Shown piece after piece: positions 10,621-31,128 of a stretch of DNA of 54,481 nucleotides. The notes below the pieces were generated by a model, which made no database searches, was not told where the DNA came from, and saw nothing but the letters and a program-made list of their open reading frames with translations. This DNA comes from an uncultured Dehalococcoidaceae bacterium (GTDB lineage: Bacteria > Chloroflexota > Dehalococcoidia > Dehalococcoidales > RBG-16-60-22). The DNA is taken from positions 1-54,481 of the forward strand of contig CAYWZO010000005.1 in NCBI GenBank assembly GCA_964462865.1, given 5' to 3'. A program made the translations under genes and the position numbers. Positions within the stretch are counted from its first letter, which is position 1. The number at the start of each line of letters is the position of its first letter.

Positions 10621-11106
10621 TTATAAAAATGGCGGCTTGTAGTCCAGCCCCAACATTGAATGGACTTTTTTATATAGTTTTTCCAGGGAAGAGACGAGTA
10701 ATCTTTTTTCTTCATTGGATAATGAAGAGAAGGCCATGGTGATGGAATTTGTCGGCATCTTCTCGAACATATCACGCCCTTTTTCGGTTATCGATATTTG
10801 ATACTGTCTGGTTTCGGGTGTTTTGGCCCTGGCGACCAATTGGTTTCTTTCCATTCTCTTGATGATAGTGGATACGGAATTATGTTTTCTTAACACGTGA
10901 GTGGCTATTTCACTCATTGTCAGAGAACGGCCTGCTTCGTACATAATGCGGAGGATGTGGGATTGTTCACGGGTCAGGCCGTACCGGGTTAATTCCATCG
11001 TGCGAGCCCTGGCGATATACTCCATGGTATCGGCAAATAGTCCCCATATGGAGTAATCGTTTAATAAGCTCTCATTAAGAACATCAGTTTTTTGTTTCAT
11101 TCTCAC
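10621..11106 (-). CDS. MarR family transcriptional regulator
   Basis: YGLTREQSHIL, SLTMSEIA...VSTIIKRMERNQLVAR, ISITEKG winged HTH; start may be ATG 11100. Confidence 0.88.
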   Translation of the reverse strand: MRMKQKTDVLNESLLNDYSIWGLFADTMEYIARARTMELTRYGLTREQSHILRIMYEAGRSLTMSEIATHVLRKHNSVSTIIKRMERNQLVARAKTPETRQYQISITEKGRDMFEKMPTNSITMAFSSLSNEEKRLLVSSLEKLYKKVHSMLGLDYKPPFL

Positions 11107-11197
11107 TCTCCTTGACGGGAGCGTATATCAACAGTTCTTTGGGCAATCAAAATTTCAACGTTGCTTCGTATCAAGAATAATACTTCCGTACAATTAT

Positions 11198-11206
11198 ATT
11201 ATATCA
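11198..11206 (-). promoter_or_regulatory. Extended -10 promoter for MarR
   Basis: Minus strand TGaTATAAT in the AT-rich gap upstream of MarR. Confidence 0.5.
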
Positions 11207-11321
11207 AAAAATGCCCAGTTTCTTAAGAGGCTTTTGTTACTCACCTAAAAAACTTTCTTGGTCGTTCTTTCTATCGCTCCGTCCCATATGATTCGGTTTG
11301 AGGTGTTAACCTGTTTTCTCA

Positions 11322-12536
11322 TCAATTAATGATGCGTTTTTCTTTAAGTTTTTTGATTTCCTCATCGGAATAGCCTAATTCCCGGACAACGTCCTCCGTA
11401 TTCTCCCCGAAACGCGGTGCCGGGAGTTTAGCTTTCTCGTTGGTCAGGCTAAGCTTGACAGGATTGGACATTACCCTGATTTGACCATGTTTAGGATGAT
11501 TAAGAGGTGAGAAATGGTTGTTTGCTTCAGCCTGGGGGTCTTTAACCACTTCCGGGAGCGTCTGTATCGGGGCCCAGGGGAACCCCACTTCGGTCAGGAG
11601 AGGTTTCCATTCCTCCAGAGTTCTGGTAGGGAATGTCTGCTCTAAAGCGTCAAAAAGGGCCCCCACGTCGTGTTTTTCCGGCTGGCATGGATTCAACTTG
11701 GCATCATTTTCCCAATCCTCATGTCCCAGAGCGCGGCAGAACCTGGGCCAGTAAACGTCCTGCCGGGACATCATCAGGTACAGCCACCGGTTGTCTTTAG
11801 TACGGTAGATGTTCAATAGCGGTGTGCCGCGGTCTTTTCTGGATATAGCCTGCCTGTCTTTACCGGTGACCAGTGTCCCGGCGATATCGCTGGAAAGTAC
11901 GAAGACCAGACTGTTGAAGAGCGACACGTCAACTTCCTGGGCAATTCCGGTCTTCTCGCGGATTAGTAACGCTGTCATGATACCGTAGGCCAGTGTTACT
12001 CCGGTGATGAAATCCGCATAGGCGATTGGCGTCTGTACGGGCTCTGACCCAGGGACCTGGAGGATGTGGAGCAGCCCTGACCGGGAATCGCCGGCGGTAG
12101 GACCGAAACCAGGCTCATCTTTGTTCGGCCCTTTCCTCCCGAAGCCCGTCAGATTGCCGCAGATTAGCCTCGGATTGATTTTTTGCAGCGTTTTGTATTC
12201 CAGTTTGAACTTTTCCAGCTCGCGCGGGCGGAAATTATTCAGGAAAACATCAGCGCCTTCGAGCAGTTTGTAAAGGATAGCCCGTCCTTCTTCCTGGGCC
12301 AGGTCAAGGGCGATGCCGCGCTTATTGCAGTTAATATTTTGTTCCAGATAGTCAAAGTCCGCAGTTATCCTCCGCACATCACGTGTAGCGGGTGGCCGGT
12401 GCATCAAGCCTCCCCTGGTCGTCTGGTCAATATGGATGACCTCCGCTCCCCAGTCCGCCAGGAGACGGCCGACCATGGGAATAGCTACCGCGGAAGCCGC
12501 TTCAATTACTTTGATGCCTTCAATACCTGAACTCAT
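11322..12536 (-). CDS. Family III (CaiB/BaiF) CoA-transferase
   Basis: LADWGAEVIHI, NCNKRGIALDL, ADVFLNNFRP, YADF catalytic-Asp region, APRFGENT. Confidence 0.93.
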   Translation of the reverse strand: MSSGIEGIKVIEAASAVAIPMVGRLLADWGAEVIHIDQTTRGGLMHRPPATRDVRRITADFDYLEQNINCNKRGIALDLAQEEGRAILYKLLEGADVFLNNFRPRELEKFKLEYKTLQKINPRLICGNLTGFGRKGPNKDEPGFGPTAGDSRSGLLHILQVPGSEPVQTPIAYADFITGVTLAYGIMTALLIREKTGIAQEVDVSLFNSLVFVLSSDIAGTLVTGKDRQAISRKDRGTPLLNIYRTKDNRWLYLMMSRQDVYWPRFCRALGHEDWENDAKLNPCQPEKHDVGALFDALEQTFPTRTLEEWKPLLTEVGFPWAPIQTLPEVVKDPQAEANNHFSPLNHPKHGQIRVMSNPVKLSLTNEKAKLPAPRFGENTEDVVRELGYSDEEIKKLKEKRIIN

Positions 12537-12579
12537 TTCTCATTTCCTCCTTCTTAATATTAACCCGTCCGTGTTTAGC

Positions 12580-13392
12580 TTATTCTGCGGATGTGCGGCC
12601 TGTTCCCGGATACAGCTTTTGTGCTATCAGGGCCGCTCCGGTAGCGCCGACAATCTGCGGCTCGAAGCAGATGTGTGCCTTGGTGCCCAGCTTGTCTTCA
12701 ATCCTTCGTACCACTCCGATATTTTTCGCAATTCCCCCCGAGATTACCAGGTCATCTTTAACCCCGGTTCGCTGGAGTAACAGGAGTATCCGCTGCACCA
12801 GGGCGTCGCAATAAGCTGCCAGGACGACGTTTCTCGGCAGGCCGCGCCGCAGCATCCGGAGGGCTTCCGATTTAGCGAAGACCACGCAGGCGCTGCCCAA
12901 TTGCGGCGGCTTTTCCTGAACATCGAGTGACATCGGGCCGATGTCTTCAAGACGTACGTCAAGCAGCTTGGCCATGACCTCCATGGACCGGCCCGTGCCC
13001 GCCGCGCATTTTTCGTTCATAACGAAGGAGGTAACTCTCCCGTTTTCATCGCAGCTCACGGCTTTACAGTCCTGCCCGCCCATGTCCAGCACCGTTCGTG
13101 CCCCGGGGAAGAAGTAATGGGCGCCGCGAGCGTGGCAGGTAATCTCCGTCACGTTTTTACTGGCATACGGTACCTGGTAGCGGCCGTATCCCGTCCCCAC
13201 CACGTATTTGATATCGTCCCGGGAAATATCGATTCCCTGTAACGCCAGGTCGAGTACCTTGTAAGACGTTTCTTTTTTATCAATCCCTACGTTTATATTA
13301 CTGAACGAGAGGATAGTGCCGTTTTTTAATATGACCGCCTGGGCGCTCGACGAGCCGACGTCGATACCGGCCGTAATTAATTCGTGTTTCAT
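12580..13392 (-). CDS. ASKHA ATPase activase, benzoyl-CoA reductase BzdQ-like
   Basis: GIDVGS, GTGYGR, TEITCHARGA, LDMGGQDCKA, MNEKCAAGTG, CVVFAKSE. Confidence 0.88.
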   Translation of the reverse strand: MKHELITAGIDVGSSSAQAVILKNGTILSFSNINVGIDKKETSYKVLDLALQGIDISRDDIKYVVGTGYGRYQVPYASKNVTEITCHARGAHYFFPGARTVLDMGGQDCKAVSCDENGRVTSFVMNEKCAAGTGRSMEVMAKLLDVRLEDIGPMSLDVQEKPPQLGSACVVFAKSEALRMLRRGLPRNVVLAAYCDALVQRILLLLQRTGVKDDLVISGGIAKNIGVVRRIEDKLGTKAHICFEPQIVGATGAALIAQKLYPGTGRTSAE

Positions 13393-13406
13393 CTCAAGTC
13401 CTTATG

Positions 13407-14183
13407 CTACAATGTCTGTTTATCACGGGCGGTCAGGGCCGCCCCGATAGCGGTGATGATGCGCGGCTCTTCGGGAACGATAACGGCCAGGCCGAGCTTT
13501 TGCCCCAGCAAATCGACGATGCTTGGGTTCCGGGCCACTCCCCCGATGAACAGGATATCTTTTTCAATCCTTAATTCCTGCAACAGCGAGGCCGCCTTGG
13601 CGGCGATGGCATCGCATACCGCCCGGGCGATATCGTCTTTATGGGATCCTTCGTTTATTAAGGAAATAACCTCGGATTCGGCGAAAATCGTGCAGGTGCT
13701 GTTCAGGGTTATCTTGTTTTTGGAGAGGAGTGAGGCCCGGCTGATGTCTGCCGCGGATAACTCCAGGATAGAGGCCATCTCGGTGATGAAAGCGCCGGCG
13801 CCGGCCGCGCACTGGTCGTTGCGGACGTACTGTAAAATCCGGCCCTCGCCGTCAAGCACCATGGCCTGGCTCTGCTCTGCACCGATGTCGATGACCGTCC
13901 TCGTCCCCGGGAAAAGCCATACCGCCCCTCTGGCGCTGCAGGTGGATTCCGTGGTATGGACGGTAGCCAGGGTAGCGCTTTCTTTCCCCATGCCGGTGGC
14001 CCCGACGTGAGTGATTTTCCCGGGGTCCAGGCAGGCTTTTTCGACTGCCTCATCGAAGGCGTTCTGTAACGATGCCTGCGTATCCCAGCCGCTGGGGACC
14101 ACGCTGTAAGCCAGCAGGCGGTCACCTTCGATAACCGCTACCTTGGTGTTTTCGGCACCTATATCTATTCCGGTACTTAACAT
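13407..14183 (-). CDS. ASKHA ATPase activase, benzoyl-CoA reductase BzdP-like
   Basis: GIDIGA, IDIGAEQ, RNDQCAAGAG, CTIFAESE; DIGAE variant as recalled for BzdP. Confidence 0.85.
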   Translation of the reverse strand: MLSTGIDIGAENTKVAVIEGDRLLAYSVVPSGWDTQASLQNAFDEAVEKACLDPGKITHVGATGMGKESATLATVHTTESTCSARGAVWLFPGTRTVIDIGAEQSQAMVLDGEGRILQYVRNDQCAAGAGAFITEMASILELSAADISRASLLSKNKITLNSTCTIFAESEVISLINEGSHKDDIARAVCDAIAAKAASLLQELRIEKDILFIGGVARNPSIVDLLGQKLGLAVIVPEEPRIITAIGAALTARDKQTL

Positions 14184-14219
14184 AATTATCCCCGGATTAC
14201 ATTATCGGCGGGATAAGGC

Positions 14220-15563
14220 TTACCCCTCCGTATCACTGTCTTTTTCATCGAGTGAGCTGATTTTCGTCAGGCCGAGACTCTCGAAGAAACGGCTGAAATC
14301 TTCTCTCACGCGGGCCTCATTCCATTCCTTGGGGTCGCCTTCGCTGGCCTCGTAGGTAGCCAGCGGTATGCCCGCCGCGCGGATGTCCTGTATTCTCGTG
14401 TAAATCCCCTGGCAAAGGGCGGCACAGCGGCGCGCCAGGTGCATCATAATGCCGTCAATATGCCAGTCCTCGACCATACGCAGAAAGTGAAGGAGTCGCC
14501 ACTCCGGCGCATCGAAGTCCACGCCATCCTCTTCGGGCGGGTAACGTTGCTCCACCAGCGCCTGCAGGGCGTCCTCCCGGTTTTTCAGTTCAATCCCTCG
14601 CTCTTCCAGTGTCTGGCCCGGCATCCGGTGGCCATCGGCGGTATGGCGGAAAGTCCCGAAGGCCATCATGAATTCGCCCTGGTTGAAGGCGGCGCCGTAC
14701 TCTTCTGGCCACCGCAGCAGGTCCGGCCGGTACAGGGGGTGCAGGCCTTCGTGGGCCAAACGCTTTTTCTCGAAAGGCGCCCCGGATATTTTGTCTTTCA
14801 CGCGCTGCTGAATCTCGTGGTAGAGACTTTCCATGTATTCCGCCGTCCCCCGGCTGTAGGCGTAGGTGACGAGGGGCAGGCGCAATGACATGGCCTGCCG
14901 GTAGCTCATCGGCGCGGGAATAGCCTTCATCAGCTCGCAGATTTTAGCCCACAACACCCGGGAGCGGATATCATATTTGGTAGCCTCGATGAAACGTTCG
15001 TCGTCAAACTTGAGCTTGGTGCGTTTTTCAATCCACTCGATAACGTAGGAGAGCTGGGAAAGGAGATAATTACGGGTGTTGGCGGTATTTTTGGGCGGCG
15101 CCTCGATGACGAGCATGGGCAGGCCCAGTAAATCGGCGCATATCTGCCCTCCCTTATACTGCGCGTGGCAGCCCTGGGGCTGGAAAACAAAATCGGGCAT
15201 CATCTGCTTGCCTGATGAACCCCCGAACGAGGTCCCGGCGTACACCTGCCCCAGATGCGCCGCGATGGCCCCGCAGACCGGGGTCAAACCGCTGCCTTCC
15301 GCCAGGTTAACGAACTTTACCAGTCCTTCCGACCCGGCTCCCTCCCGTGCGATTCGTGTGAAATCCGTACCGGGTGAAGGATTGCCGAAATTACCGAAAC
15401 CGGCCAGCAGGGGAAGATATCCCCAGGCGAAACCGGTGACGCAGAGCCCGCCCTTGGTCTGGGCTTCAAAGGACAGCTTGTAACGCTCCCTCCGGAGCTC
15501 TTTCATCCGCATCCATACTTCGTCAGAAAAGGCCCTTGTCTCAAAATCCGGCTTTGTTTCCAT
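14220..15563 (-). CDS. 2-hydroxyacyl-CoA dehydratase family subunit, divergent BzdO-like
   Basis: 447 aa; PVCG, QGCH, WHIDGIMMHLARRC, YEASEGDP; lies between the N-like and P-like genes. Confidence 0.78.
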   Translation of the reverse strand: METKPDFETRAFSDEVWMRMKELRRERYKLSFEAQTKGGLCVTGFAWGYLPLLAGFGNFGNPSPGTDFTRIAREGAGSEGLVKFVNLAEGSGLTPVCGAIAAHLGQVYAGTSFGGSSGKQMMPDFVFQPQGCHAQYKGGQICADLLGLPMLVIEAPPKNTANTRNYLLSQLSYVIEWIEKRTKLKFDDERFIEATKYDIRSRVLWAKICELMKAIPAPMSYRQAMSLRLPLVTYAYSRGTAEYMESLYHEIQQRVKDKISGAPFEKKRLAHEGLHPLYRPDLLRWPEEYGAAFNQGEFMMAFGTFRHTADGHRMPGQTLEERGIELKNREDALQALVEQRYPPEEDGVDFDAPEWRLLHFLRMVEDWHIDGIMMHLARRCAALCQGIYTRIQDIRAAGIPLATYEASEGDPKEWNEARVREDFSRFFESLGLTKISSLDEKDSDTEG

Positions 15564-15607
15564 ATCATTACTTCCTTTGCTAACAGGTGATTAGCCTGGC
15601 TGTTATT

Positions 15608-16732
15608 TCATATGGCCGTGAGCATTTCCAGGAAAGCCTCGATGCGGGTACGGAATTGGCCCACGGGCACGGTGTAGTCCAGTTCGAGCTTGAGCATGGG
15701 GACGCCCTTTTCCTTGAAAAAAGATTCTACAGCCGGGTAGTCCAGGCCGTGGGCGTCGCATTGCCGCTGCATGGTGTAGATGGCCCCCTGGACTTTATAA
15801 TCGTTGATGAGCCTGGCATAGTGGTTGAGCCGCCACCTTTCTGGCAAATCATGCAAAGGGCATGGTGGCTTGTCAACCAGCCGGGCGGCGATGGCAGCCA
15901 GCCGGTCATCTTCCGGGACAACCTCCGTCTGGTAATAGCGGTTGCCCGTGCAGTAATCGTCGATGACCACCCGGCCCCCCAGGGAATCGATGAACCGGAT
16001 AAGTTCGATGTTATTGTTCACGCTGCCGAGGAGCATGAGCCTGGGGCCTTGCCGGGCTACACCGGCACGTTGCGGGATTTCTTTTATAGCTGCTTCGAGG
16101 AGGTGGTTGTGCTCTTCCCGGTCCATGAGCATCCCGGCCAGGGTTATTTCGGCCACCTCCGCCTCGGTCAGCGGCGGGGTGTCAGCTTGCATCGTGGCGG
16201 TAATTTTAGCCACCAGCTGGCGGTTCAGATTGTAGATATTTATTGCCCTGTCAATAGCCTCGCCGGTGATTGGCTTCCCCGTCCATTTCTCCAGCGATGC
16301 CTGGCACTCTACCAGCTCCCGGGCAAGGTACTCCTTGGCATACGGATTCTGCAGGCACATCGGCGAATGAATTTCATAACTATAGGCCACGGGTACGTGA
16401 CGCTGCCAGTCCAGGAATACCTCCCGGGCGTGCGGGCAGCATTGTGAGAAAATGATACCATCAATGTAGTCGTAACGACCCTGGAGGGCCTGCGCGAAGC
16501 AATCGCGGGCAAAGGAGCAAAAGGCCGCCTGAAAGATGTACGGCCGGGTGATATTCTCCGGTTCGTTGGTCCCCAGGAGGCGGACCGGAAGGATACCGGC
16601 AGCATAAATCAGTTCTTCCGGCAGGTTCGAGCACAGCGCCCCGATGACTCTGCCGCCCGTTTTCGATTTCCAGTCTCGCGCGGACTGGTGGGGATTCGTC
16701 ACGATAGCGTGAAATTCATCGAAAATACTCAT
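15608..16732 (-). CDS. 2-hydroxyacyl-CoA dehydratase family subunit, BzdN-like
   Basis: WKSKTGGRVIG, PEELIYAAGILPVR, FCSFARD, DDYCTGNRY, QRQCDAHGLD. Confidence 0.87.
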   Translation of the reverse strand: MSIFDEFHAIVTNPHQSARDWKSKTGGRVIGALCSNLPEELIYAAGILPVRLLGTNEPENITRPYIFQAAFCSFARDCFAQALQGRYDYIDGIIFSQCCPHAREVFLDWQRHVPVAYSYEIHSPMCLQNPYAKEYLARELVECQASLEKWTGKPITGEAIDRAINIYNLNRQLVAKITATMQADTPPLTEAEVAEITLAGMLMDREEHNHLLEAAIKEIPQRAGVARQGPRLMLLGSVNNNIELIRFIDSLGGRVVIDDYCTGNRYYQTEVVPEDDRLAAIAARLVDKPPCPLHDLPERWRLNHYARLINDYKVQGAIYTMQRQCDAHGLDYPAVESFFKEKGVPMLKLELDYTVPVGQFRTRIEAFLEMLTAI

Positions 16733-16789
16733 ATCATCCCCTCCGGGAACGGCCTGAAAACAGCCTCTTCATTCCCTAAGAAATTCATA

Positions 16790-18774: not shown

Positions 18775-18784
18775 AAGCTTTTTT

Positions 18785-19660: not shown

Positions 19661-19711
19661 AGGCTATTCTCGGGCCTGTTATATCATTCGTTCTTTTTCT
19701 TGAGCCGTTTT

Positions 19712-20632
19712 TTACGTATATCTGATACGAGGGTCGACATAGGCGTACAATATATCAACAACTAGGTTCGCGGTAACGAACATAAAGGTGATGAAAAGTA
19801 CCACCGCCTGAATCATGGGGAAATCCCGGGTGGAGACCGCTTCCCAGGCCAGGCGGCCCAGTCCCGGCCAGGCGAATATCGTCTCGATAACCACCACCCC
19901 GGTCATCAGTCCTGTCAGCAGCGTACCGAGAAATGTCAGCACCGGTATCAGGCTGTTGCTGAAGGCGTGCTTCCAGATGACCAACCTTTCGTCCAGCCCC
20001 TTGATTCTGGCCAGCTTAACGTACTCCCCGCTCAAGACATCCAGCATGCTAGAACGCGTCAGGCGGACGATGCCCGCTAAGGATATTCCGCTTAAAGCTA
20101 CCGCCGGCAAAATTATCTGCTTGAAGCTGCCGTAACCGGAGGTGGGCAGCAGGCGGAATTGCACGCTGATAACGTACATCAGGACGATACCGACCCAGAA
20201 AGCCGGCATGGACTGTCCCAGCATCGCCAGCACCCTGCCTGCGGTGTCCAGAAACGACCCACGGCGCACAGCGGAAATTACCCCTATCGGTATGCCGATG
20301 ATAATACTCAAGAGCATGGCGGCGACAGCCAGTTGAAAAGAAGCCGGTATCCTCTCCACGATCTGGTCCACCACCGGACGGCGCGCGCCCCGGATTGACC
20401 TGCCGAGGTCTCCCTGCAGCGCCTTTTTCAAGAAGATGGCGTATTGAACCGGTATTGGTTTGTCCAGCCCTAGTTCCCTGGTTACCAGCTCGACATCTTC
20501 CTTGGTGGCGAGGTCACCCAGCAACAGGGGTACCGGGTCGCCGCTCAATCTTCCCAGAAGGAAGACGATAATGCTCATCAGGAAGATGGTTATAATCGCC
20601 TGAATAATACGTTTGATAAGATATCGCTGCAT
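19712..20632 (-). CDS. ABC transporter permease (DppB/OppB-like)
   Basis: GDLGRS, SMPAFW, TRSSMLDVL...ARIKGL, ETIFAWPGLG, DPRIR. Confidence 0.93.
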   Translation of the reverse strand: MQRYLIKRIIQAIITIFLMSIIVFLLGRLSGDPVPLLLGDLATKEDVELVTRELGLDKPIPVQYAIFLKKALQGDLGRSIRGARRPVVDQIVERIPASFQLAVAAMLLSIIIGIPIGVISAVRRGSFLDTAGRVLAMLGQSMPAFWVGIVLMYVISVQFRLLPTSGYGSFKQIILPAVALSGISLAGIVRLTRSSMLDVLSGEYVKLARIKGLDERLVIWKHAFSNSLIPVLTFLGTLLTGLMTGVVVIETIFAWPGLGRLAWEAVSTRDFPMIQAVVLFITFMFVTANLVVDILYAYVDPRIRYT

Positions 20633-20939
20633 TTCCTTATTTCATCGAGTTCAGAAACCCGGTACGTTTACTCTCAAACGTCTCCTATAAATTATAAATA
20701 CATCACGTGTTATCAGCTATGCTTCAATAGCATGTGCAATTTATAGAAAATACCAGCTAGCACGGTCCTGGCGGAACAGAGGCATTATCCCGATATAACC
20801 TGACTATTACCTCTGTTCCGCCCAACGTTCTGATTAGACCGATGGCACTTTATCTTACGGCTGATAACCTTTATACTTCAACAGTCCGAAGTTATCCAAC
20901 CGGTGTCCAATATTCTATTTAAGCCGCTTATCATTATCA

Positions 20940-22649
20940 CTATTGCGCTTTGGTAATCTGGTCGAAGTTCGTGGGATAGTTGGTGATAGTCGGCCAGCTC
21001 CCGATTACCGGGTTGACGGCGTAGGGTTCCTCGGCGCTGATCAGGAAGATAAAAACAGCCTCGTCGGTAAGGTAGTCATAGATATCTTTTAATAACGCGA
21101 GCCTCTTGGCGGAGTCCGGCTCACTAAGGGCCGCGTCCGACATCTTATCGAGCTCCGGCGTGGTAAATATCGCGAACACGCTTTTATCCGTATAAGCCGC
21201 CGTCAGACCGCCCGGGTCGTCCAGAGCAATGGGTGCCCCATAGGTGTGGGTCCAGAACATGTTCTGGGCTTTCGCTCCGGTCCAGGATGCCCTGATAGTG
21301 GGATAGTCGGTCGGTATTATTTTTACATTAATACCTACGGCTTCCCAATAGGTAGCAACCGCCAATCCGATATCAGGGAGTTGCGCGCCTGGATTTCTGG
21401 CACAGGTGTAAAAAGTTACATCGAAACCATTGGGATAGCCTGCATCGGCTAACATTTGCTTTGCCTTAGCTTCGTTGTAGGGGTATGCCGGTGCTGCCTG
21501 GTCGACGAAATTGTGTGGATTGAAGTTGGACCTGGCCGCGCCGTGGAAAATGTTCCTGGCAATAGCGTCTTTATCGACAGCGTAGTTCAGGGCCTGGCGG
21601 ACTTCCTTTTTAGCCCAGGGGGCCGTTGGGTTATAACGAACAGGGTCGGTCTCCACCAGGCCGCCCATTAAGATTCTCGGCGCCCAGGAGTCTTTCTGGG
21701 CGAGGATGTTGAATTTTGAGGCCTTGACCGTATTGACGGAGTCCAGGCTGATGGGGGCCATATCGGCCTCGCCGACTTTCAGCATCGCCACCCGGGTTGA
21801 TTCCTCCGGTACGCCGTAAAAGATAATATCCTTAAATTCCGGGGTGACGCGCCAGTGGTTTTCCACGCCGGGAACGGTGGTTACTTTAATCGATACGCCG
21901 CGTTTATGTTCGGCCAGGGTATAGGCGCCGGTCCCGATGGGGTGAGAATCAGCCCTTTCATCACCCACCTGCTCAACGTACTTCTTACAGACGATATGGT
22001 TGGAAATGGTATTGGAAAGCCTGTTCCAGAACGTAAAGTCGGCGGTGTTAAGTTTAAAGACGGCCGTATATTTATCAGGGGTTTCGACGGTAAGATCAAA
22101 GGAGCGGAAAGTTGATGCTTGGGCTGCCTTGGAAGCAGGTTCAATTTGTCGTTCGAAAGTGTACTTGACGTCCGCGGATGTCAATTCGCCCCAGTTTTCA
22201 TGGAATTGAATGCCTTCCCGCAGCTTGATGGTCCAGGTCTTGCCGTCAGGCGTCATTTCCCAGGACTTTGCCAGACCGGGCAGGGGCAGTTTGGTGGCGG
22301 GGTCCAAGTAAAGCAGGTACTCGAAAATTGTATCGATGTAGAATTTCCGCCCTGAAGCACCGTTCCAGGGCAGGAAAGTCTCGTCCTCCAGACCGGGCAT
22401 GGCTACCTTTAAAACACCGGTGGGGGACTTCTTCGCCGCGGTAGGGGCGGTAGTGGTTGCCGGCGTCGTCTTCGGAGTGGTGGCCGTGGGTGTGGTGGTC
22501 GCCGCTGGTGTGGTGGTTACGACTGGTTTCGTGGTGGTTGCCGGAGCGGTCGTTGTCTCGGTTGTTTTACAGGAACCGACCAGGAGCATGAAGACCGTCA
22601 TCAGGATTAAGGCAAGACTACAGGCAAGGACTAACTTGTTTCTCTTCAT
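20940..22649 (-). CDS. Family 5 ABC substrate-binding lipoprotein with Thr/Pro-rich linker
   Basis: Lipobox LVGS-C; PGLAKSWE, LREGIQFH, PIGTGAY, VRQALNYAVD, AKQMLADAGYPNGF. Confidence 0.92.
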   Translation of the reverse strand: MKRNKLVLACSLALILMTVFMLLVGSCKTTETTTAPATTTKPVVTTTPAATTTPTATTPKTTPATTTAPTAAKKSPTGVLKVAMPGLEDETFLPWNGASGRKFYIDTIFEYLLYLDPATKLPLPGLAKSWEMTPDGKTWTIKLREGIQFHENWGELTSADVKYTFERQIEPASKAAQASTFRSFDLTVETPDKYTAVFKLNTADFTFWNRLSNTISNHIVCKKYVEQVGDERADSHPIGTGAYTLAEHKRGVSIKVTTVPGVENHWRVTPEFKDIIFYGVPEESTRVAMLKVGEADMAPISLDSVNTVKASKFNILAQKDSWAPRILMGGLVETDPVRYNPTAPWAKKEVRQALNYAVDKDAIARNIFHGAARSNFNPHNFVDQAAPAYPYNEAKAKQMLADAGYPNGFDVTFYTCARNPGAQLPDIGLAVATYWEAVGINVKIIPTDYPTIRASWTGAKAQNMFWTHTYGAPIALDDPGGLTAAYTDKSVFAIFTTPELDKMSDAALSEPDSAKRLALLKDIYDYLTDEAVFIFLISAEEPYAVNPVIGSWPTITNYPTNFDQITKAQ

Positions 22650-22792
22650 TCAAACGCCTCCTTTTAATTGGTTAATCATGAGGTTTTAAACGCGGGATAA
22701 TCACTATCTCGCCTGGCTCTCGTCTGAATCTCTTCGTCTTACCCCCTTTCCCGCGGTAATTTTCACAGCGTCTTTTAAACTCTTACATATCG

Positions 22793-24013
22793 TCAGATTA
22801 CTTTTTCTTCTTTAAACTGCGTAATATCATCCCAACTGTACCCCCCAAGCTCCTGAAGCACCTCCTCGGTATGCTGGCCGAACTCCGGCGCCGGGCTCTG
22901 GACACCCGCCGGTGTAGTGTGGAATTTTACCGGACATCCTACCGTTTTTATTCTTCCGAGTGAAGGCTGCTCGTATTCCACGACGTATTTGTTATCCAGA
23001 ATCTGCGGGTCATCGGCCACATCCAGTCCCTCGTTGATGGGAGAAAACATGATGCGATGATATTTGCCCACGATTTCCACCCACTCGTCGCGCGGTTTGG
23101 TAGCAAAGACTTGGTCTAAAATATCTATCAATTCCCGGCAGTTTTTCGCCCTGGCCGGGGTGCTTTCGAACTTCGGGTCCTTTTCAAGATTTTCGATGCC
23201 GGCGGCCTTACAAAAATCCGGCCATACCCTGTCCGTGGCCAGGATGCAGAAACTGATCCATTTGCCGTCCTTACATTTGTAATGATTGGCGAGGGGATTG
23301 CTGACTGATTTCCTGTCTTCCCGAAGGAGTTCCTTCTTGTAAAAAAAGGTGTTGGTCAGTCTGACATGCTGGAGCGCGACCATGGAGCCGGTGATGGAAA
23401 TATCGATTTCCTGGCCGATTCCCAGCCTTTCCCGGGCCAGCAGCGCCGCTAATATGCCGTCAACGGCGATAATTGAAGTCATATGGTCGGCCATGGCCCC
23501 GCCCACTGCCGCCGGTTCCCCGAGGAGCGCCGTCTGGTTGGTCATGAAGCCGGAACGTGCCTGGCCCACATAGTCATTGCCGCGGCGCCAGTTGTCCGGC
23601 CCGTCAGGGCCAAGGCTGGATATATTGGCGTAAATTATCTTGGGATTGTATTGGGAAATCGTCTTGTAATCTAAATTCGCACGGTCACGCACGGACTGCC
23701 TGAAGTTCTGCAGAAAAACATCGCACTTTTGCACGAGCCGGTATATTATTTCCTTGCCTTTAGGTGTGGTGACGTCTACGGTGATGCACTTTTTATTACG
23801 GTTCACGCCGGTATACATGAATTCTCTCTCGGCGGTGGTGCGTCCCGTCGCCATCCCTTCCAGCCGCGTGATGCCGCGGCTGGGGTCGCCGACGACGGGT
23901 TGTTCGATCTTGATTACTTCCGCGCCCATATCTCCGAGCATCATGGTTGCCCCCGGGCCCGCCAGCCATATTGCCCACTCTAAAATACGGATACCATCTA
24001 AAGGTTTAGCCAT
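22793..24013 (-). CDS. Family III (CaiB/BaiF) CoA-transferase
   Basis: LGDMGAEVIKIE, NRNKKCIT, DVFLQNFR, MADH, APEFGQHT. Confidence 0.93.
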   Translation of the reverse strand: MAKPLDGIRILEWAIWLAGPGATMMLGDMGAEVIKIEQPVVGDPSRGITRLEGMATGRTTAEREFMYTGVNRNKKCITVDVTTPKGKEIIYRLVQKCDVFLQNFRQSVRDRANLDYKTISQYNPKIIYANISSLGPDGPDNWRRGNDYVGQARSGFMTNQTALLGEPAAVGGAMADHMTSIIAVDGILAALLARERLGIGQEIDISITGSMVALQHVRLTNTFFYKKELLREDRKSVSNPLANHYKCKDGKWISFCILATDRVWPDFCKAAGIENLEKDPKFESTPARAKNCRELIDILDQVFATKPRDEWVEIVGKYHRIMFSPINEGLDVADDPQILDNKYVVEYEQPSLGRIKTVGCPVKFHTTPAGVQSPAPEFGQHTEEVLQELGGYSWDDITQFKEEKVI

Positions 24014-24140
24014 TGTATCATGCCTTTCTAAAAATGATTTTTTACTGTGGTATTTGTCTTGTTATTTCTCTTGTTCACGGATGTCCCGCTTTTAAAGGTT
24101 GAATCCGTCAATGAACAAGAAGTGAGAAATGAAATTCACT

Positions 24141-24171
24141 ACATCATATACTATATAGAATATGATGTCAA
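24141..24171 (-). promoter_or_regulatory. Near-consensus sigma70 promoter overlapped by a 28-bp palindromic operator
   Basis: Minus strand TTGACA (24171-24166)-17 nt-TATGAT (24148-24143); palindrome ACATCATATACTATATAGAATATGATGT (24141-24168) is 26/28 self-complementary. Confidence 0.8.
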
Positions 24172-24355
24172 TATCGATATTAAATGTTTTTTCATTTTCG
24201 GTGAAGGAAATGGGATACATTAAAGATATAAAGTAAGGAATACTTGAGAATTTGTTGCTGTTTTATAAGAAAGCTGGTTAGTGGCTTAAACGCGCCCGGC
24301 GCTTTGAATCAGATAGTTGCCAGTAAATATCACCGGTCCGGTGTCAGAACTGCGC

Positions 24356-26749
24356 TCAAGCCGTTTGGTATTCTGTCCGGGCGATGATTTCATCCTGTAT
24401 TACTTTACCCAGCCCCGTAAAGTAGGCGCTGTAACCGGCCACCCTGACAATCAGGTCGCGGTGTTTTTCTGGATGCTGCTGGGCGTCCAGAAGCGTCACC
24501 CTGTCAACGATGTTGAATTGGACATGCTTGCCGCCAAGTTCAAAATAGGTACTGATTAAAATGGCGAGCTTACGCCTGTCCTCTTCCGTCCCGAGTGCGG
24601 ATGTATGGAATTTCATGTTCAGCAGTGTTGCCTGGAGGGTACTCTGGTCAATTTTCGAGGCGCTTTTCATGACCGCCGTCGGGCCGCGTACGTCTTGGCC
24701 CTGTACCGGCGACATACCGCCGTCGGCCAGGAACGTACCGGAATATCTGCCGTCGGGGGTGGCGCCTGTTTGGGCTCCCCCGGGCCACTGCGCCGAGATG
24801 GAAATAGCCGAGGGTTTATGTGTCCCGCCTACTATCGTGGGGAAATTTGCGGTAATTTCTGAAAAATACCTGTAAAGCTCGGCAGCCAGAGAGTCCGCGT
24901 AATCATCGTCGTTTCCGTACTTGGGTGCTGCCATAAAGGCTTTCCTCATCGCCTCGTAGCCTGCCCAGTTGGCGTGCAGAGCGGCCTGTAGTTCTCTCAT
25001 GGTGTATTTCCGCTCTTCGAAGATGAGCTTTTTGACCGCCGCGAGGGAATCGACCACATTGACCATGCCCACGGTGTTGAGCACCGCGCCATTCTCGAAG
25101 GGATAGGTACGGTCGAGAAGGCTCCGTCCCACCCTGACAGGGTCATCCAGCAGAGCGGTACGCACCGGGTCGGGGAAGATATCGGCATGAGCGCTCATCC
25201 AGATGTTATTATACTCGGCGTTCAATTGCAGGAAGTAAGACAGCTGTTGTTTAAAGGCGTTCACGAGTTCGTCGAAAGATTGAAAGGTCTCCGAATCTCC
25301 CGTTTTCGGGCCGAGTTGCCTTCCTGTTTTCGGGTCCACGCCGTTGTTCAGGGTGATATCCAGCACCATCGGCGTGATGAACATGGCAAAGGCGCTGATG
25401 CGGGATTTCCCCGGGATACTGGCGTCAAGGCAGCCGCCCAGGGCGTAATTCCTTGCGTCTTCGAGCGGGACTCCCTGACGGCACAGATAACTGATATACG
25501 AATTATCACCAACAAAAGCAGGCAGGCCGATTCCGGTCTGAAGTACTTCGATACTTTTAAGTAACAGCGCCTCGGGTGTTTTTTCGTGCACTCTCACGGT
25601 GATGGTGTGATGGGGCGTGGGACAGCGCCGCGCCGCTTCCAGGATAAGGTAGGAAAGCTCATTGGTGGCGTCCTGCCCGTCACGCGTCTGACCGCCGATA
25701 ACACAGTTATGCCATTTGGCTTTGCCGGCATCTTTCTGTCGGTTCTCCTTGCCCGATATTCTGTTCAACTCCATGTCCTTGATGCGGAGGCACTGCAGCA
25801 GCTCAAGTGCTTCCTCATCGGAGATAAGTCCCTGCTCTATATCCCTTTTGTAATAGGGATAGAGATATTGGTCCATTCTGCCCATCCCCGCCACCGTGGA
25901 AGGGTTAATCATCAGGAAGGCAAACCAGAAAGACTGGATGGCTTCACGGAAAGTGCGCGCCGGATTGGCCGGCACCTGCCGGCACGTGGCGGCGATTATC
26001 TCCAGTTCTTTTTTACGTGCCGGGTCCTTTTCCCTTATCGCCGTCTGTGCCGCGAGTATGGCGAACCTGCTGGCGAAACGGACGACGGCGTTGAGTGAAA
26101 TAATCAGGGCATTAAGAAAATGTCCCTTTTCTACCGAGCCGGTATTCAGGAACGTGAGTTTTTGAAGTTCCTTCTCTGCCTCATTGATGATATCGAGCAG
26201 GCCGTGCTGGAGCACTTTCTCGTAATCTTCAACGTTATTGTAAAAGCCCGGGCCGAGTCCCATGCCGCTCTCGGCGTAGCCGCCGCCGCTCCCTTCCGCT
26301 TTGCTTTTCCAGGGCGCCAGCACCATGCCCGTTTGCATGAAGGGCCAGAGCCTTTCATCATCAAAAGAATGGCCTATCCTGGCAACGAGGCTCTTTCCTC
26401 TCCAGTATTCGTTGATAGCTTCAGCCTCTCTTAAATCGCGGTCGTTGATTAACCACCCCTCCTCTTTCAGGGCGTTTATTTCATCCTCCGGCCAGGGCCC
26501 GTAATTAAACTCCATCTCGACACCCAGGTAGGTGCTGGCCCCGTTGCCGACGATGAGTTCGCCCTCCCTGATGAAAATGGTGATGTTGTCCAGGGAATGA
26601 GCCAGGGCTTTAGCTCTTCTAAGAATCTCCGGTTCACCCTCGGTCTGCCGGAACACCTCCGTCATCAGCCGCGCCTTTTCAATGCAGACGGGATATTTTT
26701 CGACCCGGAGCCCTGCCTTCAGTTTTTCAATCCGTGTTGTGCTCATCAT
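24356..26749 (-). CDS. Glycyl radical enzyme (PFL-like family), unknown reaction
   Basis: C-terminal RVAGYS glycyl motif, HVQFNI, TPDGR, single-Cys loop GGCLD; 797 aa. Confidence 0.93.
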   Translation of the reverse strand: MMSTTRIEKLKAGLRVEKYPVCIEKARLMTEVFRQTEGEPEILRRAKALAHSLDNITIFIREGELIVGNGASTYLGVEMEFNYGPWPEDEINALKEEGWLINDRDLREAEAINEYWRGKSLVARIGHSFDDERLWPFMQTGMVLAPWKSKAEGSGGGYAESGMGLGPGFYNNVEDYEKVLQHGLLDIINEAEKELQKLTFLNTGSVEKGHFLNALIISLNAVVRFASRFAILAAQTAIREKDPARKKELEIIAATCRQVPANPARTFREAIQSFWFAFLMINPSTVAGMGRMDQYLYPYYKRDIEQGLISDEEALELLQCLRIKDMELNRISGKENRQKDAGKAKWHNCVIGGQTRDGQDATNELSYLILEAARRCPTPHHTITVRVHEKTPEALLLKSIEVLQTGIGLPAFVGDNSYISYLCRQGVPLEDARNYALGGCLDASIPGKSRISAFAMFITPMVLDITLNNGVDPKTGRQLGPKTGDSETFQSFDELVNAFKQQLSYFLQLNAEYNNIWMSAHADIFPDPVRTALLDDPVRVGRSLLDRTYPFENGAVLNTVGMVNVVDSLAAVKKLIFEERKYTMRELQAALHANWAGYEAMRKAFMAAPKYGNDDDYADSLAAELYRYFSEITANFPTIVGGTHKPSAISISAQWPGGAQTGATPDGRYSGTFLADGGMSPVQGQDVRGPTAVMKSASKIDQSTLQATLLNMKFHTSALGTEEDRRKLAILISTYFELGGKHVQFNIVDRVTLLDAQQHPEKHRDLIVRVAGYSAYFTGLGKVIQDEIIARTEYQTA

Positions 26750-27069: not shown

Positions 27070-27100
27070 CTACTACAACTTTACCTTGTGAGGAGTGAAA

Positions 27101-28285: not shown

Positions 28286-28442
28286 CACACCTTCGACTGT
28301 ACAGGACCTTATTCAACTAAAAAGAATAAGCGACTACAAAACGCCGGGAGGTGTCAGGTTCCGGCGCCAGAGGCTATTCTGACTGTGACTTAAGAAGTGG
28401 TATCATTATTGGGGGCAGGTCAGAAAAAGGAAGGCTATTAAT

Positions 28443-31118: not shown

Positions 31119-31128
31119 TTTTAATAAG

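What the first reader, a model, noticed from the sequence alone, without database searches (positions are those of the whole stretch)
10621..26749. 16-kb co-oriented radical-catabolism locus: GRE, CoA-transferase, ABC, BzdNOPQ-like, CoA-transferase, MarR
Seen: all genes are on the minus strand and combine uptake, CoA activation, an ATP-driven FeS reductase/dehydratase, a glycyl radical enzyme and a MarR. Established: several MarR proteins sense aryl-CoA thioesters, and family III CoA-transferases can replace CoA ligases. Inference: an uncharacterised anaerobic pathway for an imported aromatic or heteroaromatic acid. I do not recognise this combination as a described pathway.
Basis: inference. 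Interest (0 to 1): 0.75.

Follow-up and report, generated by a model that had tools for sequence, protein, structure and literature searches.

The report
CoA-cycling FeS radical-enzyme operon plus GRE
A rare 12-gene Dehalococcoidia operon (acid uptake, two CoA-transferases, an ATP-driven iron-sulfur enzyme that resembles benzoyl-CoA reductase but lacks its catalytic residues, and a MarR regulator) lies beside a separately transcribed, uncharacterised glycyl radical enzyme, so it is probably an undescribed anaerobic pathway, not benzoate degradation.

Summary
Thirteen minus-strand genes occupy 10621-26749 with the stated domains.

The region is two units, not one.

**Unit 1 (10621-24013).** This is a 12-gene operon: CoA-transferase, Opp-type SBP, two permeases, two ATPases, BzdN/O/P/Q-like subunits, a second CoA-transferase and MarR.
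- The same gene order occurs in four other Dehalococcoidia lineages.
- All four loci with DNA in hand share a promoter containing a palindrome upstream of the first gene.
- The N subunit keeps all six cysteines of the [8Fe-9S] double cubane.
- The O subunit keeps its three cluster cysteines but lacks BzdO's Glu65, His131, Tyr97, Gln274 and Tyr298. It is therefore not a benzoyl-CoA reductase.
- The SBP lacks the aspartate that anchors a peptide's amino terminus.

**Unit 2 (GRE, 24356-26749).** The GRE is intact and belongs to a large uncharacterised clade with an invariant Cys-x-Asp loop. Every characterised eliminase or isomerase has Cys-x-Glu.
- No activase gene lies in the 54-kb window.
- The closest relative genome carries its orthologue on another contig.
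- A 48%-identical Cys-x-Asp paralogue with its activase abuts the same operon in two other lineages, in two orientations.

The GRE link is therefore recurrent but facultative. Substrate and chemistry remain unknown.

The parts
10621..11106 (-). MarR-family regulator, last gene of the conserved block
   Evidence: Pfam MarR_2/MarR. The best NCBIfam hit is HpaR, far below its cutoff. A MarR gene sits in the same position in L001 (cut by the contig end), L019 and the P0129 contig.
11198..11226 (-). Promoter-like site upstream of MarR (TTAAGA-17-TATAAT with an extended TG)
   Evidence: Consensus scan only. Its conservation in other loci was not tested.
11322..12536 (-). Family III CoA-transferase 2 (CoAT2)
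   Evidence: Pfam CoA_transf_3, 319 bits. All NCBIfam hits are below equivalog cutoffs. It is 34% identical to CoAT1. An Asp aligns with CoAT1 Asp175 at the position where I recall the catalytic Asp of family III CoA-transferases.
12580..13392 (-). BcrAD/BzdQ-like electron-activating ATPase (Q)
   Evidence: Pfam BcrAD_BadFG. NCBIfam BzdQ scores 288 bits against a cutoff of 380. Two Cys motifs are present, which from my knowledge of HgdC could bridge a [4Fe-4S] cluster.
13407..14183 (-). Second BcrAD-type ATPase (P), 33% identical to Q
   Evidence: Pfam BcrAD_BadFG. NCBIfam CoA_E_activ domain, 200 bits. Pairwise identity.
14220..15563 (-). BzdO-like substrate-binding [4Fe-4S] subunit with a non-BCR active site
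   Evidence: Closest structure is 8s02_A BzdO, 169 bits. Cys97, Cys132, Cys380, Trp47 and Gln128 are kept. The counterparts of BzdO Glu65, His131, Tyr97, Gln274, Tyr298 and Glu381-Gly382 are not kept. The subfamily has its own conserved His133 and His275. The subfamily is a single 50%-identity cluster among 1.84 billion representatives.
15608..16732 (-). BzdN-like subunit with the complete [8Fe-9S] double-cubane ligand set
   Evidence: Closest structure is 8s02_B BzdN, 318 bits. Cys34, 72, 99, 261, 291 and 325 align with BzdN Cys36, 73, 100, 263, 293 and 327. Arg51, Arg265 and His328 are also kept (residue list from PMC11971306).
16790..17785 (-). Opp/Dpp-type ABC ATPase (F-like)
   Evidence: Pfam ABC_tran + oligo_HPY. 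The start at 17785 is inferred from orthologue lengths and its overlap with the upstream stop codon.
17785..18774 (-). Opp/Dpp-type ABC ATPase (D-like)
   Evidence: Pfam ABC_tran + oligo_HPY.
18785..19660 (-). ABC permease (C-like)
   Evidence: Pfam BPD_transp_1 + OppC_N.
19712..20632 (-). ABC permease (B-like)
   Evidence: Pfam BPD_transp_1 + BPD_transp_1_N.
20940..22649 (-). Lipoprotein substrate-binding protein, SBP_bac_5 family, not a canonical peptide binder
   Evidence: Pfam SBP_bac_5. It has a signal peptide with a VGSC lipobox and a Thr/Pro-rich linker. The counterpart of DppA Arg355 is conserved in orthologues, but the counterpart of DppA Asp408 is Thr/Ile.
22793..24013 (-). Family III CoA-transferase 1 (CoAT1), first gene of the operon
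   Evidence: Pfam CoA_transf_3, 355 bits. The closest solved structure is the succinate-hydroxymethylglutarate CoA-transferase; the BbsF subunit of benzylsuccinate CoA-transferase scores 129 bits. It is 72-91% identical in L001, L019, L020 and L022.
24141..24171 (-). Operon promoter (TTGACA-17-TATGAT) enclosing a 28-bp palindrome, a candidate MarR operator
   Evidence: This is the best promoter match in 10-28 kb, 11 of 12 positions. The palindrome spans 24141-24168 and is 93% complementary. The TTGACATC...TAT..AT block is conserved upstream of CoAT1 in L001, L019 and L022. Operator function is inferred, not tested.
24331..24343 (-). Short GC hairpin 13 nt after the GRE stop codon
   Evidence: Terminator-like scan. 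The signal is weak because the T-tract is poor.
24356..26749 (-). Glycyl radical enzyme of an uncharacterised Cys-x-Asp clade ('GRE-A')
   Evidence: Pfam PFL-like + Gly_radical. No NCBIfam equivalog cutoff is reached; the best is HpsG at 583 bits against 1000. It is roughly equidistant from GDH, CutC, PD and AAD structures at about 500 bits. The Gly loop is RVAGY. The Cys loop G-C-[LI]-D is invariant in 120 of 120 homologues.

Best explanation
The region holds two transcription units.

**Unit 1 (10621-24171)** is a self-contained operon, specific to Dehalococcoidia in this form, that cycles CoA around a radical enzyme.
1. A lipoprotein SBP and an Opp-type ABC importer take up a carboxylic acid that has no free alpha-amino group.
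2. A family III CoA-transferase converts the acid to its CoA thioester.
3. The heterodimeric P/Q ATPase uses ATP to push a low-potential electron through the [8Fe-9S] cluster of the N subunit to the [4Fe-4S] cluster of the O subunit. There the acyl-CoA undergoes a ketyl or radical-anion reaction.
4. The second CoA-transferase hands CoA on or back.
5. MarR represses the operon at the palindrome inside its promoter until the acid or its thioester accumulates.

I commit to a two-electron reduction of an unsaturated or aromatic acyl-CoA other than benzoyl-CoA as the most likely chemistry. A redox-neutral dehydration of the Had/Fld type is the main alternative.

**Unit 2** is an intact GRE of an uncharacterised Cys-x-Asp clade. 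It is transcribed on its own and activated by an activase encoded elsewhere in the genome. It is an accessory partner that acts on a free acid of the same substrate family, either before or after the CoA-dependent step.

**Shown:** gene content, conservation of gene order, cluster-ligand conservation, loss of the BzdO catalytic residues, the Cys-x-Asp motif, and the conserved promoter.

**Inferred:** the direction of CoA flow, the type of chemistry, the MarR operator, the identity of the substrate, and the functional link to the GRE.
For: - **Conserved gene order.** The 12 genes keep the same order in the window, L001, the P0129 contig and L019. The first six recur in L022-L024.
- **Own promoter.** A conserved promoter with a palindrome lies upstream of CoAT1 in all four loci with DNA, whatever lies further upstream.
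- **N subunit.** It is closest to the BzdN structure (318 bits) and keeps all six double-cubane cysteines and the flanking Arg/His residues.
- **O subunit.** It keeps the three cluster cysteines and Trp46.
- **ATPases.** There are two paralogues at 33% identity, and each carries two Cys motifs of the kind that bridge a cluster in HgdC (my recollection).
- **CoA-transferases.** There are two paralogues at 34% identity, and each has an Asp at the position where I recall the family's catalytic Asp.
- **SBP.** It keeps the counterpart of the carboxylate-binding Arg and loses the counterpart of the amine-binding Asp.
- **GRE link.** A different Cys-x-Asp GRE, 48% identical, lies with its activase next to the same operon in L019 (same direction) and in L022-L024 (divergent).
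- **Neighbouring genes hint at aromatic substrates.** The window carries an O-demethylase-like module and two AhtL-like Mo enzymes. L022 carries VprA-like flavoproteins, and L019 carries an M20 amidohydrolase of the TIGR01891 family.
Against: - No substrate is identified.
- The O subunit lacks the proton donors needed for Birch-type reduction (Glu65, His131), and position 131 is hydrophobic or Gln. This resembles HadB, where the BzdNO paper reports Ala at that position.
- No ferredoxin or other electron-donor gene, and no enzyme for a reduced-ring product, lies in the operon. No enoyl-CoA hydratase family hit was found in the 54-kb window.
- The GRE next to the operon is not orthologous between loci. 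It is absent in five of eight lineages examined. Elsewhere the GRE-A clade sits alone with IclR or GntR regulators and TRAP transporters.
- The ABC genes are missing from the L020 and L021 variants.
- Promoter, terminator and operator calls are pattern matches only.
Confidence: 0.5

Rival explanations
1. The N/O/P/Q enzyme is a 2-hydroxyacyl-CoA dehydratase-type ketyl radical enzyme, as in the Had and Fld systems. A 2-hydroxy acid is imported and activated by the family III CoA-transferase. It is dehydrated redox-neutrally after a catalytic, ATP-driven one-electron activation. The enoyl-CoA product then passes its CoA to the next substrate molecule. The GRE handles a sister acid, for example an arylacetate, as in aromatic amino-acid fermentation.
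For: - From established knowledge, a family III CoA-transferase next to HGD-D subunits and a BcrAD ATPase is the layout of the hadAIBC and fldAIBC operons. The Pfam content here matches it.
- The O subunit lacks the BCR proton donors, and position 131 is hydrophobic or Gln. HadB has Ala there according to PMC11971306.
- The operon has no ferredoxin gene and no genes for processing a reduced product.
- A D-2-hydroxyacid dehydrogenase gene lies elsewhere in the window, at 46086-47099.
Against: - Both catalytic subunits are much closer to BzdN/BzdO (318 and 169 bits) than to HadC/HadB (143 and 30 bits).
- The N subunit has the full double-cubane ligand set.
- The operon encodes two different ATPase subunits rather than one homodimeric activator.
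- No 2-hydroxyacid dehydrogenase gene lies in the operon in any locus examined.
Confidence: 0.25
2. The locus is one 16-kb pathway in which a genuine aryl-CoA (benzoyl-CoA-type) dearomatising reductase and the GRE are both obligatory steps in degrading an imported aromatic or heteroaromatic acid.
For: - The four-subunit Bzd-type architecture is present, and BzdN, BzdO and BzdQ are the best NCBIfam hits.
- GRE adjacency recurs in three lineages.
- Modules for aromatic metabolism lie nearby in the window.
Against: - All Bzd equivalog cutoffs are missed.
- The counterparts of BzdO Glu65, His131, Tyr97, Gln274 and Tyr298 are absent. Among 104 full-length family representatives, 33 carry the Glu65/Tyr97/His131 triad, and those inspected are only about 30% identical to this protein.
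- No dienoyl-CoA hydratase, dehydrogenase or ring-hydrolase genes and no ferredoxin gene were found.
- The GRE has its own promoter region, has no activase nearby, and lies on another contig in the nearest relative.
Confidence: 0.12
3. The GRE is an unrelated neighbour. Dehalococcoidia genomes are compact and rich in both GREs and BCR-like clusters, so the adjacency arose by rearrangement and carries no functional meaning.
For: - The 84% GRE orthologue in the sister MAG lies on a different contig from the 84-91% identical operon.
- The P0129 contig, L020, L021 and L002 have no GRE next to the operon.
- GRE-A homologues in other phyla sit with IclR or GntR regulators and TRAP transporters, with no CoA-transferase or HGD-D genes nearby.
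- The window has no activase, and the GRE has separate transcription signals.
Against: - Two different Cys-x-Asp GRE paralogues abut the same end of the same operon in three lineages and in two orientations. That is hard to obtain by chance if GREs are about 0.5% or less of genes, a figure I assumed and did not measure.
- In L017, two GREs of this clade also sit beside another BcrAD/HGD-D cluster.
Confidence: 0.35

Closest known systems
Bzd-type class I benzoyl-CoA reductase BzdNOPQ (Aromatoleum sp. CIB; PDB 8S02; PMC11971306)
   Same: - It has four subunits in the order N-O-P-Q.
- The N subunit keeps all six cysteines of the [8Fe-9S] double cubane.
- The O subunit keeps a [4Fe-4S] site with three cysteines and an open iron position.
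- Two BcrAD-type ATPases are present.
- BzdN and BzdO are the best structural and NCBIfam matches.
   Different: - The O subunit lacks the counterparts of Glu65, His131, Ser44, Tyr97, Gln274, Tyr298, Leu302 and Glu381-Gly382. It carries conserved His133 and His275 instead.
- All equivalog cutoffs are missed.
- The substrate would be activated by CoA-transferases rather than by a CoA ligase.
- No bzdM-type ferredoxin gene and no bzdWXY-type downstream genes are present.
- An ABC importer is embedded in the operon.
2-Hydroxyacyl-CoA dehydratase systems HadA/HadI/HadBC and FldA/FldI/FldBC
   Same: - A family III CoA-transferase is encoded next to two HGD-D subunits and a BcrAD-type ATPase.
- The logic of cycling CoA between product and substrate fits.
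- The O subunit has no BCR-type proton donors, as in HadB.
   Different: - Sequence similarity to HadB and HadC is much lower than to BzdO and BzdN.
- The partner subunit has a double-cubane ligand set.
- There are two different ATPases and two different CoA-transferases.
- No 2-hydroxyacid dehydrogenase, acyl-CoA dehydrogenase or Etf genes are present.
GRE 1,2-eliminases and isomerases (GDH, PD, CutC, HypD, IslA, HpsG, HplG, YbiW) and arylacetate decarboxylase AAD (PDB 7E7L)
   Same: - The protein has the full-length PFL2-type fold signature, an RVAGY glycine loop and a catalytic Cys loop.
- It scores about 400-520 bits against all of these structures.
- The GMGRMDQ segment resembles AAD.
   Different: - The Cys loop is Cys-x-Asp, not the Cys-x-Glu kept by every characterised eliminase and isomerase.
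- The counterparts of GDH His164, His281-Ser282 and Asp447 are absent.
- No equivalog cutoff is reached.
- No activase gene is adjacent in the window.
Anaerobic toluene pathway parts (BSS, BbsEF CoA-transferase, benzoyl-CoA reductase)
   Same: It also combines a GRE, two family III CoA-transferase genes and a class I BCR-like enzyme.
   Different: - The GRE is not an X-succinate synthase: TutD scores only about 350 bits and no small-subunit genes were noted.
- No beta-oxidation (bbs) genes are present.
- The two CoA-transferases lie 10 kb apart.
- An ABC importer makes little sense for a hydrocarbon substrate.

Membership tests
Class I benzoyl-CoA reductase, Bzd type | Four subunits: two HGD-D catalytic subunits (N, O) and two BcrAD ATPases (P, Q) | tested here: met
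   Pfam and NCBIfam hits, with gene order N-O-P-Q.
Class I benzoyl-CoA reductase, Bzd type | BzdN has six cysteines ligating the [8Fe-9S] double cubane (Cys36, 73, 100, 263, 293, 327) | tested here: met
   All six align with Cys34, 72, 99, 261, 291 and 325 (residue list).
Class I benzoyl-CoA reductase, Bzd type | BzdO has a [4Fe-4S] cluster held by Cys95, Cys128 and Cys380 | tested here: met
   They align with Cys97, Cys132 and Cys380, which are conserved in 38-40 of 40 subfamily members.
Class I benzoyl-CoA reductase, Bzd type | BzdO has the catalytic acid/base pair Glu65 and His131 at the Fe-OH2 site | tested here: not met
   Glu65 aligns with a gap or Thr66. His131 aligns with Gln135, and the subfamily has Leu, Ile or Gln there. 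The Glu/His pair reappears only in hits at about 30% identity.
Class I benzoyl-CoA reductase, Bzd type | Residues that bind the thioester and benzoyl ring: Tyr97, Gln274, Tyr298, Leu302 | tested here: not met
   The aligned residues are Ala99, Leu274 and Phe298, and Leu302 aligns with a gap or Phe.
Class I benzoyl-CoA reductase, Bzd type | Scores reach the NCBIfam equivalog cutoffs for BzdN, BzdO and BzdQ | tested here: not met
   Scores against cutoffs are 317 vs 454, 180 vs 449 and 288 vs 380 bits.
Class I benzoyl-CoA reductase, Bzd type | A dedicated ferredoxin and dienoyl-CoA hydratase, dehydrogenase and ring-hydrolase genes lie in the cluster | tested here: not met
   None was found in the operon. 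No enoyl-CoA hydratase family hit was found in the 54-kb window.
Class I benzoyl-CoA reductase, Bzd type | ATP-dependent reduction of benzoyl-CoA to a dienoyl-CoA | not testable with these tools
   This needs an enzyme assay.
2-Hydroxyacyl-CoA dehydratase system (Had/Fld type) | A family III CoA-transferase is encoded with two HGD-D subunits and a BcrAD activator | tested here: met
2-Hydroxyacyl-CoA dehydratase system (Had/Fld type) | The catalytic subunits are closest to HadB/HadC-type proteins | tested here: not met
   HadC scores 143 bits against 318 for BzdN. HadB scores 30 bits against 169 for BzdO.
2-Hydroxyacyl-CoA dehydratase system (Had/Fld type) | A single homodimeric activator and an adjacent 2-hydroxyacid dehydrogenase | tested here: not met
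   There are two ATPase paralogues at 33% identity. No dehydrogenase gene lies in the operon in any locus.
Glycyl radical enzyme superfamily | PFL-like domain, C-terminal glycine loop (RVxGY) and a catalytic Cys loop | tested here: met
   Pfam scores of 594 and 115 bits. RVAGY starts at residue 769, and the catalytic Cys lies in GGCLD at residues 438-442.
GRE 1,2-eliminases and isomerases | [quoted passage not shown] | tested here: not met
   The loop is C-L-D. Asp is invariant in 120 of 120 homologues. The CXE rule comes from PMC13450708.
GRE 1,2-eliminases and isomerases | Scores reach an NCBIfam equivalog cutoff (HpsG, CutC, HypD, IAD, HPAD, PFL) | tested here: not met
   The best score is 583 bits against a cutoff of 1000.
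GRE 1,2-eliminases and isomerases | A cognate radical SAM activase is encoded nearby | tested here: not met
   No radical SAM gene or remnant lies in the window. Activases are present next to GRE-B in L019 and L022.
Opp/Dpp (PepT) peptide ABC importer | An SBP_bac_5 protein, two permeases and two ATPases with the oligo_HPY domain | tested here: met
Opp/Dpp (PepT) peptide ABC importer | The SBP has an Asp anchoring the peptide alpha-amino group (DppA Asp408; residue role recalled from memory) | tested here: not met
   The position aligns with Thr in the FWTH-T motif and with Thr or Ile in orthologues. The counterpart of Arg355 is conserved. The alignment is at only about 25% identity, so this is moderate evidence.
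Family III CoA-transferases | CoA_transf_3 fold with the catalytic Asp | tested here: inconclusive
   The Pfam matches are full length. An Asp (CoAT1 Asp175) is aligned between the two paralogues. Its equivalence to Frc Asp169 rests on my recollection of the motif and was not tested by alignment to Frc.
MarR-family ligand-responsive repressors | A winged-helix MarR domain, and a palindromic operator overlapping the regulated promoter | tested here: inconclusive
   The domain is present. A 28-bp palindrome lies between the -35 and -10 elements and is conserved in kind in four loci. Binding was not tested.

The most novel reading that the evidence does not exclude
The N/O/P/Q enzyme catalyses a new ATP-driven [8Fe-9S]/[4Fe-4S] radical reaction on a CoA thioester, using His133 and His275 in place of the Glu/His pair of benzoyl-CoA reductase. 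Together with a new Cys-x-Asp class of glycyl radical enzymes, it forms an undescribed anaerobic route by which wetland and sediment Dehalococcoidia degrade plant-derived aromatic acids or their N-acyl conjugates.
Probability: 0.25. Interest if true: 0.8.

Novelty: new variant of a known kind. Interest (0 to 1): 0.6.

Why it matters
- **Annotation of Dehalococcoidia genomes.** Metagenomic surveys count 'bcr/bzd' genes in Dehalococcoidia as evidence for anaerobic benzoate or aromatic degradation (for example the papers listed). This subfamily has the BCR architecture but not its active site, so such inferences are unsafe for it.
- **A defined target for enzymology.** The operon is compact and conserved, and it carries its own transporter, regulator and operator. 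That makes it tractable for finding a new reaction of the BCR/HAD radical enzyme family.
- **An unassigned GRE clade.** The GRE belongs to a clade with an invariant Cys-x-Asp loop, found across several phyla, and no function has been assigned. A recent review lists only Cys-x-Glu enzymes among eliminases and isomerases.
- **Carbon turnover in anoxic sediments.** If the two units act on one substrate, they would define a new anaerobic pathway in an abundant, uncultured sediment and wetland lineage.

Tried and rejected
**Look-ups that failed**
- Exact-sequence look-ups of the window's GRE, as the 797-aa translation and as P0001, found nothing on record.
- The P0129 contig came back without DNA, so only its gene table could be used.
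- The full GRE of L019 could not be retrieved.

**Searches that returned little**
- The genome-contig scan with BzdN found only two relatives.
- The metagenome scan found one close fragment plus more distant paralogues.
- Rfam found only three tRNAs and no riboswitch in the operon leader.
- No activase remnant was found by tblastn in the window, L001 or L003.
- Literature searches found no description of this gene combination or of a Cys-x-Asp GRE.

**Readings rejected**
- *Genuine benzoyl-CoA reductase.* The catalytic residues are absent.
- *X-succinate synthase or toluene-like pathway.* The GRE type is wrong and there are no bbs genes.
- *Diol, choline, hydroxyproline or sulfonate eliminase.* There is no CXE motif and the GDH residues are missing.
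- *Plain peptide transporter inserted by chance.* The ABC genes are embedded under the operon promoter in five lineages, and the SBP lacks the amine anchor.
- *MR_MLE gene at 27095 as a conserved partner of the GRE.* It is absent from every other GRE-A locus.

**Not attempted**
- Structure prediction was not run, because the tools would not report active-site geometry.

Full report
**Observation**

ORF listing and Pfam/NCBIfam scans confirm thirteen co-oriented minus-strand genes between 10621 and 26749. In map order they are:
- MarR
- a family III CoA-transferase (CoAT2)
- two BcrAD-type ATPases (Q-like, P-like)
- two HGD-D subunits (O-like, N-like)
- two Opp-type ATPases
- two permeases
- an SBP_bac_5 lipoprotein
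- a second family III CoA-transferase (CoAT1)
- a 797-aa glycyl radical enzyme

None of these proteins reaches an NCBIfam equivalog cutoff. The second ABC ATPase most likely starts at 17785, not at the start of the longer mechanical ORF.

**Origin**

The closest relatives are Dehalococcoidia MAGs. Other related loci come from JGI and ENA metagenome assemblies.

**A conserved 12-gene operon**

Local BLAST of the window proteins against the fetched loci shows one gene order: CoAT1, SBP, two permeases, two ATPases, N, O, P, Q, CoAT2, MarR.

| Locus | What is conserved | Amino-acid identity |
|---|---|---|
| L001 | all 12 genes (MarR cut by contig end) | 66-91% |
| L019 | all 12 genes | 51-87% |
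| P0129 contig | all 12 genes (gene table only) | not computed |
| L022-L024 | first six genes | 67-85% |
| L014, L007 | short fragments, consistent with the order | 80-92% |
| L020 (Thermodesulfobacteriota) | CoAT1-N-O with no ABC genes between | 62-72% |
| L002, L021 | decayed copies with truncated CoA-transferase and ABC relics | - |

The strongest sigma-70-like promoter in 10-28 kb lies at 24171-24143, upstream of CoAT1. It reads TTGACA-17-TATGAT and encloses a 28-bp palindrome. The same promoter block with an ATCATAT/ATATGAT-type inverted repeat lies upstream of CoAT1 in L001, L019 and L022. The operon therefore has its own regulated promoter whatever lies further upstream. MarR is the obvious candidate for the repressor, but that is an inference.

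**The FeS enzyme**

The closest solved structures are BzdN and BzdO of Aromatoleum (8S02), at 318 and 169 bits. These scores are well above HadC and HadB, at 143 and 30 bits. I used the residue lists from the BzdNO structure paper (PMC11971306).
- The N subunit keeps all six [8Fe-9S] cysteines and also Arg53, Arg267 and His330.
- The O subunit keeps Cys95, Cys128, Cys380, Trp46 and Gln124.
- The O subunit loses the proposed proton donors Glu65 and His131, and also Ser44, Tyr97, Gln274, Tyr298, Leu302 and Glu381-Gly382.

A 71-sequence alignment shows these losses hold for the whole subfamily at 50% identity or more. That subfamily instead conserves His133 and His275. The BzdO signature returns only in hits at about 30% identity.

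An exhaustive HMMER search of 1.84 billion cluster representatives returns one representative for this subfamily and only 64 hits at E ≤ 1e-30. Among 104 full-length representatives, 33 carry the Glu/Tyr/His triad and the window's group does not.

The enzyme therefore has the Bzd-type electron-delivery machinery but a different active site. It is not a benzoyl-CoA reductase. Neither the operon nor the window encodes a dedicated ferredoxin or dienoyl-CoA-processing enzymes.

**Transport and activation**

The SBP is a lipoprotein with a Thr/Pro-rich linker. Aligned to E. coli DppA, the counterpart of the carboxylate-binding Arg355 is conserved in all orthologues. The counterpart of Asp408, which binds the peptide amino group (role recalled from memory), is Thr or Ile. 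This argues against ordinary peptides and for a carboxylate ligand without a free alpha-amine.

The two CoA-transferases are 34% identical. Each carries an Asp at the position where I recall the family's catalytic Asp. Their nearest characterised relatives use dicarboxylates; CoAT1's closest solved structure is SUGCT, with BbsF more distant.

**The GRE**

The GRE is intact, with an RVAGY glycine loop and a catalytic Cys. It is about equally distant from the glycerol and diol dehydratases, CutC and the arylacetate decarboxylase AAD. It lacks the counterparts of GDH His164, His281-Ser282 and Asp447. Its Cys loop is G-C-L-D, and the Asp is invariant in all 120 closest homologues, which are 59-84% identical and come from several phyla. 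A 2026 review states that all characterised eliminases and isomerases keep Cys-x-Glu and does not mention a Cys-x-Asp class.

**Is the GRE part of the pathway?**

Evidence against:
- A hairpin and the operon promoter separate the GRE from CoAT1.
- The window contains no activase gene or remnant.
- In the nearest relative assembly (GCA_964645025.1), the 84% GRE orthologue lies on contig 26 beside another SBP_bac_5 gene and an aldo-keto reductase. The operon lies on contig 8 with no GRE upstream.
- The P0129 contig, L020, L021 and L002 also lack an adjacent GRE.
- In other phyla this GRE clade sits with IclR or GntR regulators and TRAP transporters.

Evidence for:
- In L019, a GRE and its activase lie directly upstream of CoAT1 in the same direction.
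- In L022-L024, a GRE and its activase lie divergently next to CoAT1.
- That GRE has a G-C-V-D loop and is only 48% identical to the window's GRE, while the core proteins are 67-85% identical. It is therefore a paralogue.
- A third Dehalococcoidales genome places two GREs related to the window's clade (62% and 56% identical to the window's GRE) beside a different BcrAD/HGD-D cluster.

Two different Cys-x-Asp GREs at the same end of the same operon, in two orientations, suggest a facultative functional link. I could not compute a formal enrichment.

**Substrate hints**

These are weak.
- The window carries an O-demethylase-like methyltransferase/corrinoid module and two pyrogallol-transhydroxylase-like Mo enzymes.
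- In L022, the GRE and activase are followed by flavoproteins whose best hit is vinyl phenol reductase, below its cutoff.
- In L019, an M20 amidohydrolase of the TIGR01891 family follows MarR. From memory, that family includes hippuricase-type N-acyl-amino-acid hydrolases.
- L021 carries a chalcone-isomerase-like gene.

Together with the SBP features, these hints point to plant-derived aromatic acids or their N-acyl conjugates. Nothing here demonstrates it.

**Verdict**

The best-supported reading is a conserved, self-regulated operon that cycles CoA around a radical enzyme with a novel BzdO-like active site. An accessory GRE of an uncharacterised clade sits beside it.

I rate it a new variant of a known kind (the BCR/HAD radical enzyme systems), with moderate to high interest.

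Noticed in passing
window 27095-33963 (+): Divergent from the GRE lies a run of five genes: an MR_MLE enolase-superfamily gene, an AhtL-like (pyrogallol transhydroxylase-like) molybdoenzyme, and a URO-D-like methyltransferase / corrinoid protein / URO-D-like methyltransferase trio. The trio looks like an aromatic O-demethylase system.
   Followed up: partly
window 49381-51972 (+) and 34087-36821 (-): There is a second AhtL-like molybdoenzyme, and a separate Mo-bisPGD oxidoreductase with a 4Fe-4S dicluster partner. Mo-cofactor genes MobB, MoeA and MobA lie at 2705-5225.
   Followed up: no
window 46086-48966 (-): A D-2-hydroxyacid dehydrogenase lies next to the two subunits of a family I CoA-transferase. 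This could belong to a hydroxy-acid pathway. It is 20 kb from the operon.
   Followed up: no
window 9075-10496 (+); L002 6267-7541: A serpin gene lies just downstream of MarR in the window. A 50-52% identical serpin lies about 2.5 kb upstream of the BzdNOPQ-like genes in L002.
   Followed up: no
L002 9242-14848; L021 8004-12350: Both loci hold decayed copies of the operon. L002 keeps N/O/P/Q but only residues 116-327 of the F-like ATPase and residues 1-201 of CoAT2. L021 keeps only residues 301-406 of CoAT1, and has N, O and P but no Q and no CoAT2.
   Followed up: partly
L017 1-14952 (Dehalococcoidales CP070842): Two divergent GREs related to the window's clade (62% and 56% identical to the window's GRE) lie beside another HGD-D/BcrAD cluster. 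That cluster also has a ferredoxin, a large Fe-S flavoprotein, a thiolase with a zf-ChsH2 protein (a BbsAB-like pair) and a PrpD-family gene.
   Followed up: partly
L022 11054-16844 (-): Four FAD-dependent oxidoreductase genes follow the GRE-B/activase pair. Two of them hit vinyl phenol reductase VprA best, at 272-304 bits against a cutoff of 600.
   Followed up: partly
L019 14962-16137 (+): An M20 amidohydrolase of the TIGR01891 family lies immediately downstream of MarR. From memory, that family includes N-acyl-amino-acid and hippurate hydrolases. Together with the SBP's missing amine anchor, this suggests N-acyl amino-acid conjugates as possible substrates.
   Followed up: no
window 40-199 (-) and 37017-37098 (-): Three tRNA genes were found. 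There were no other Rfam matches in the window.
   Followed up: no
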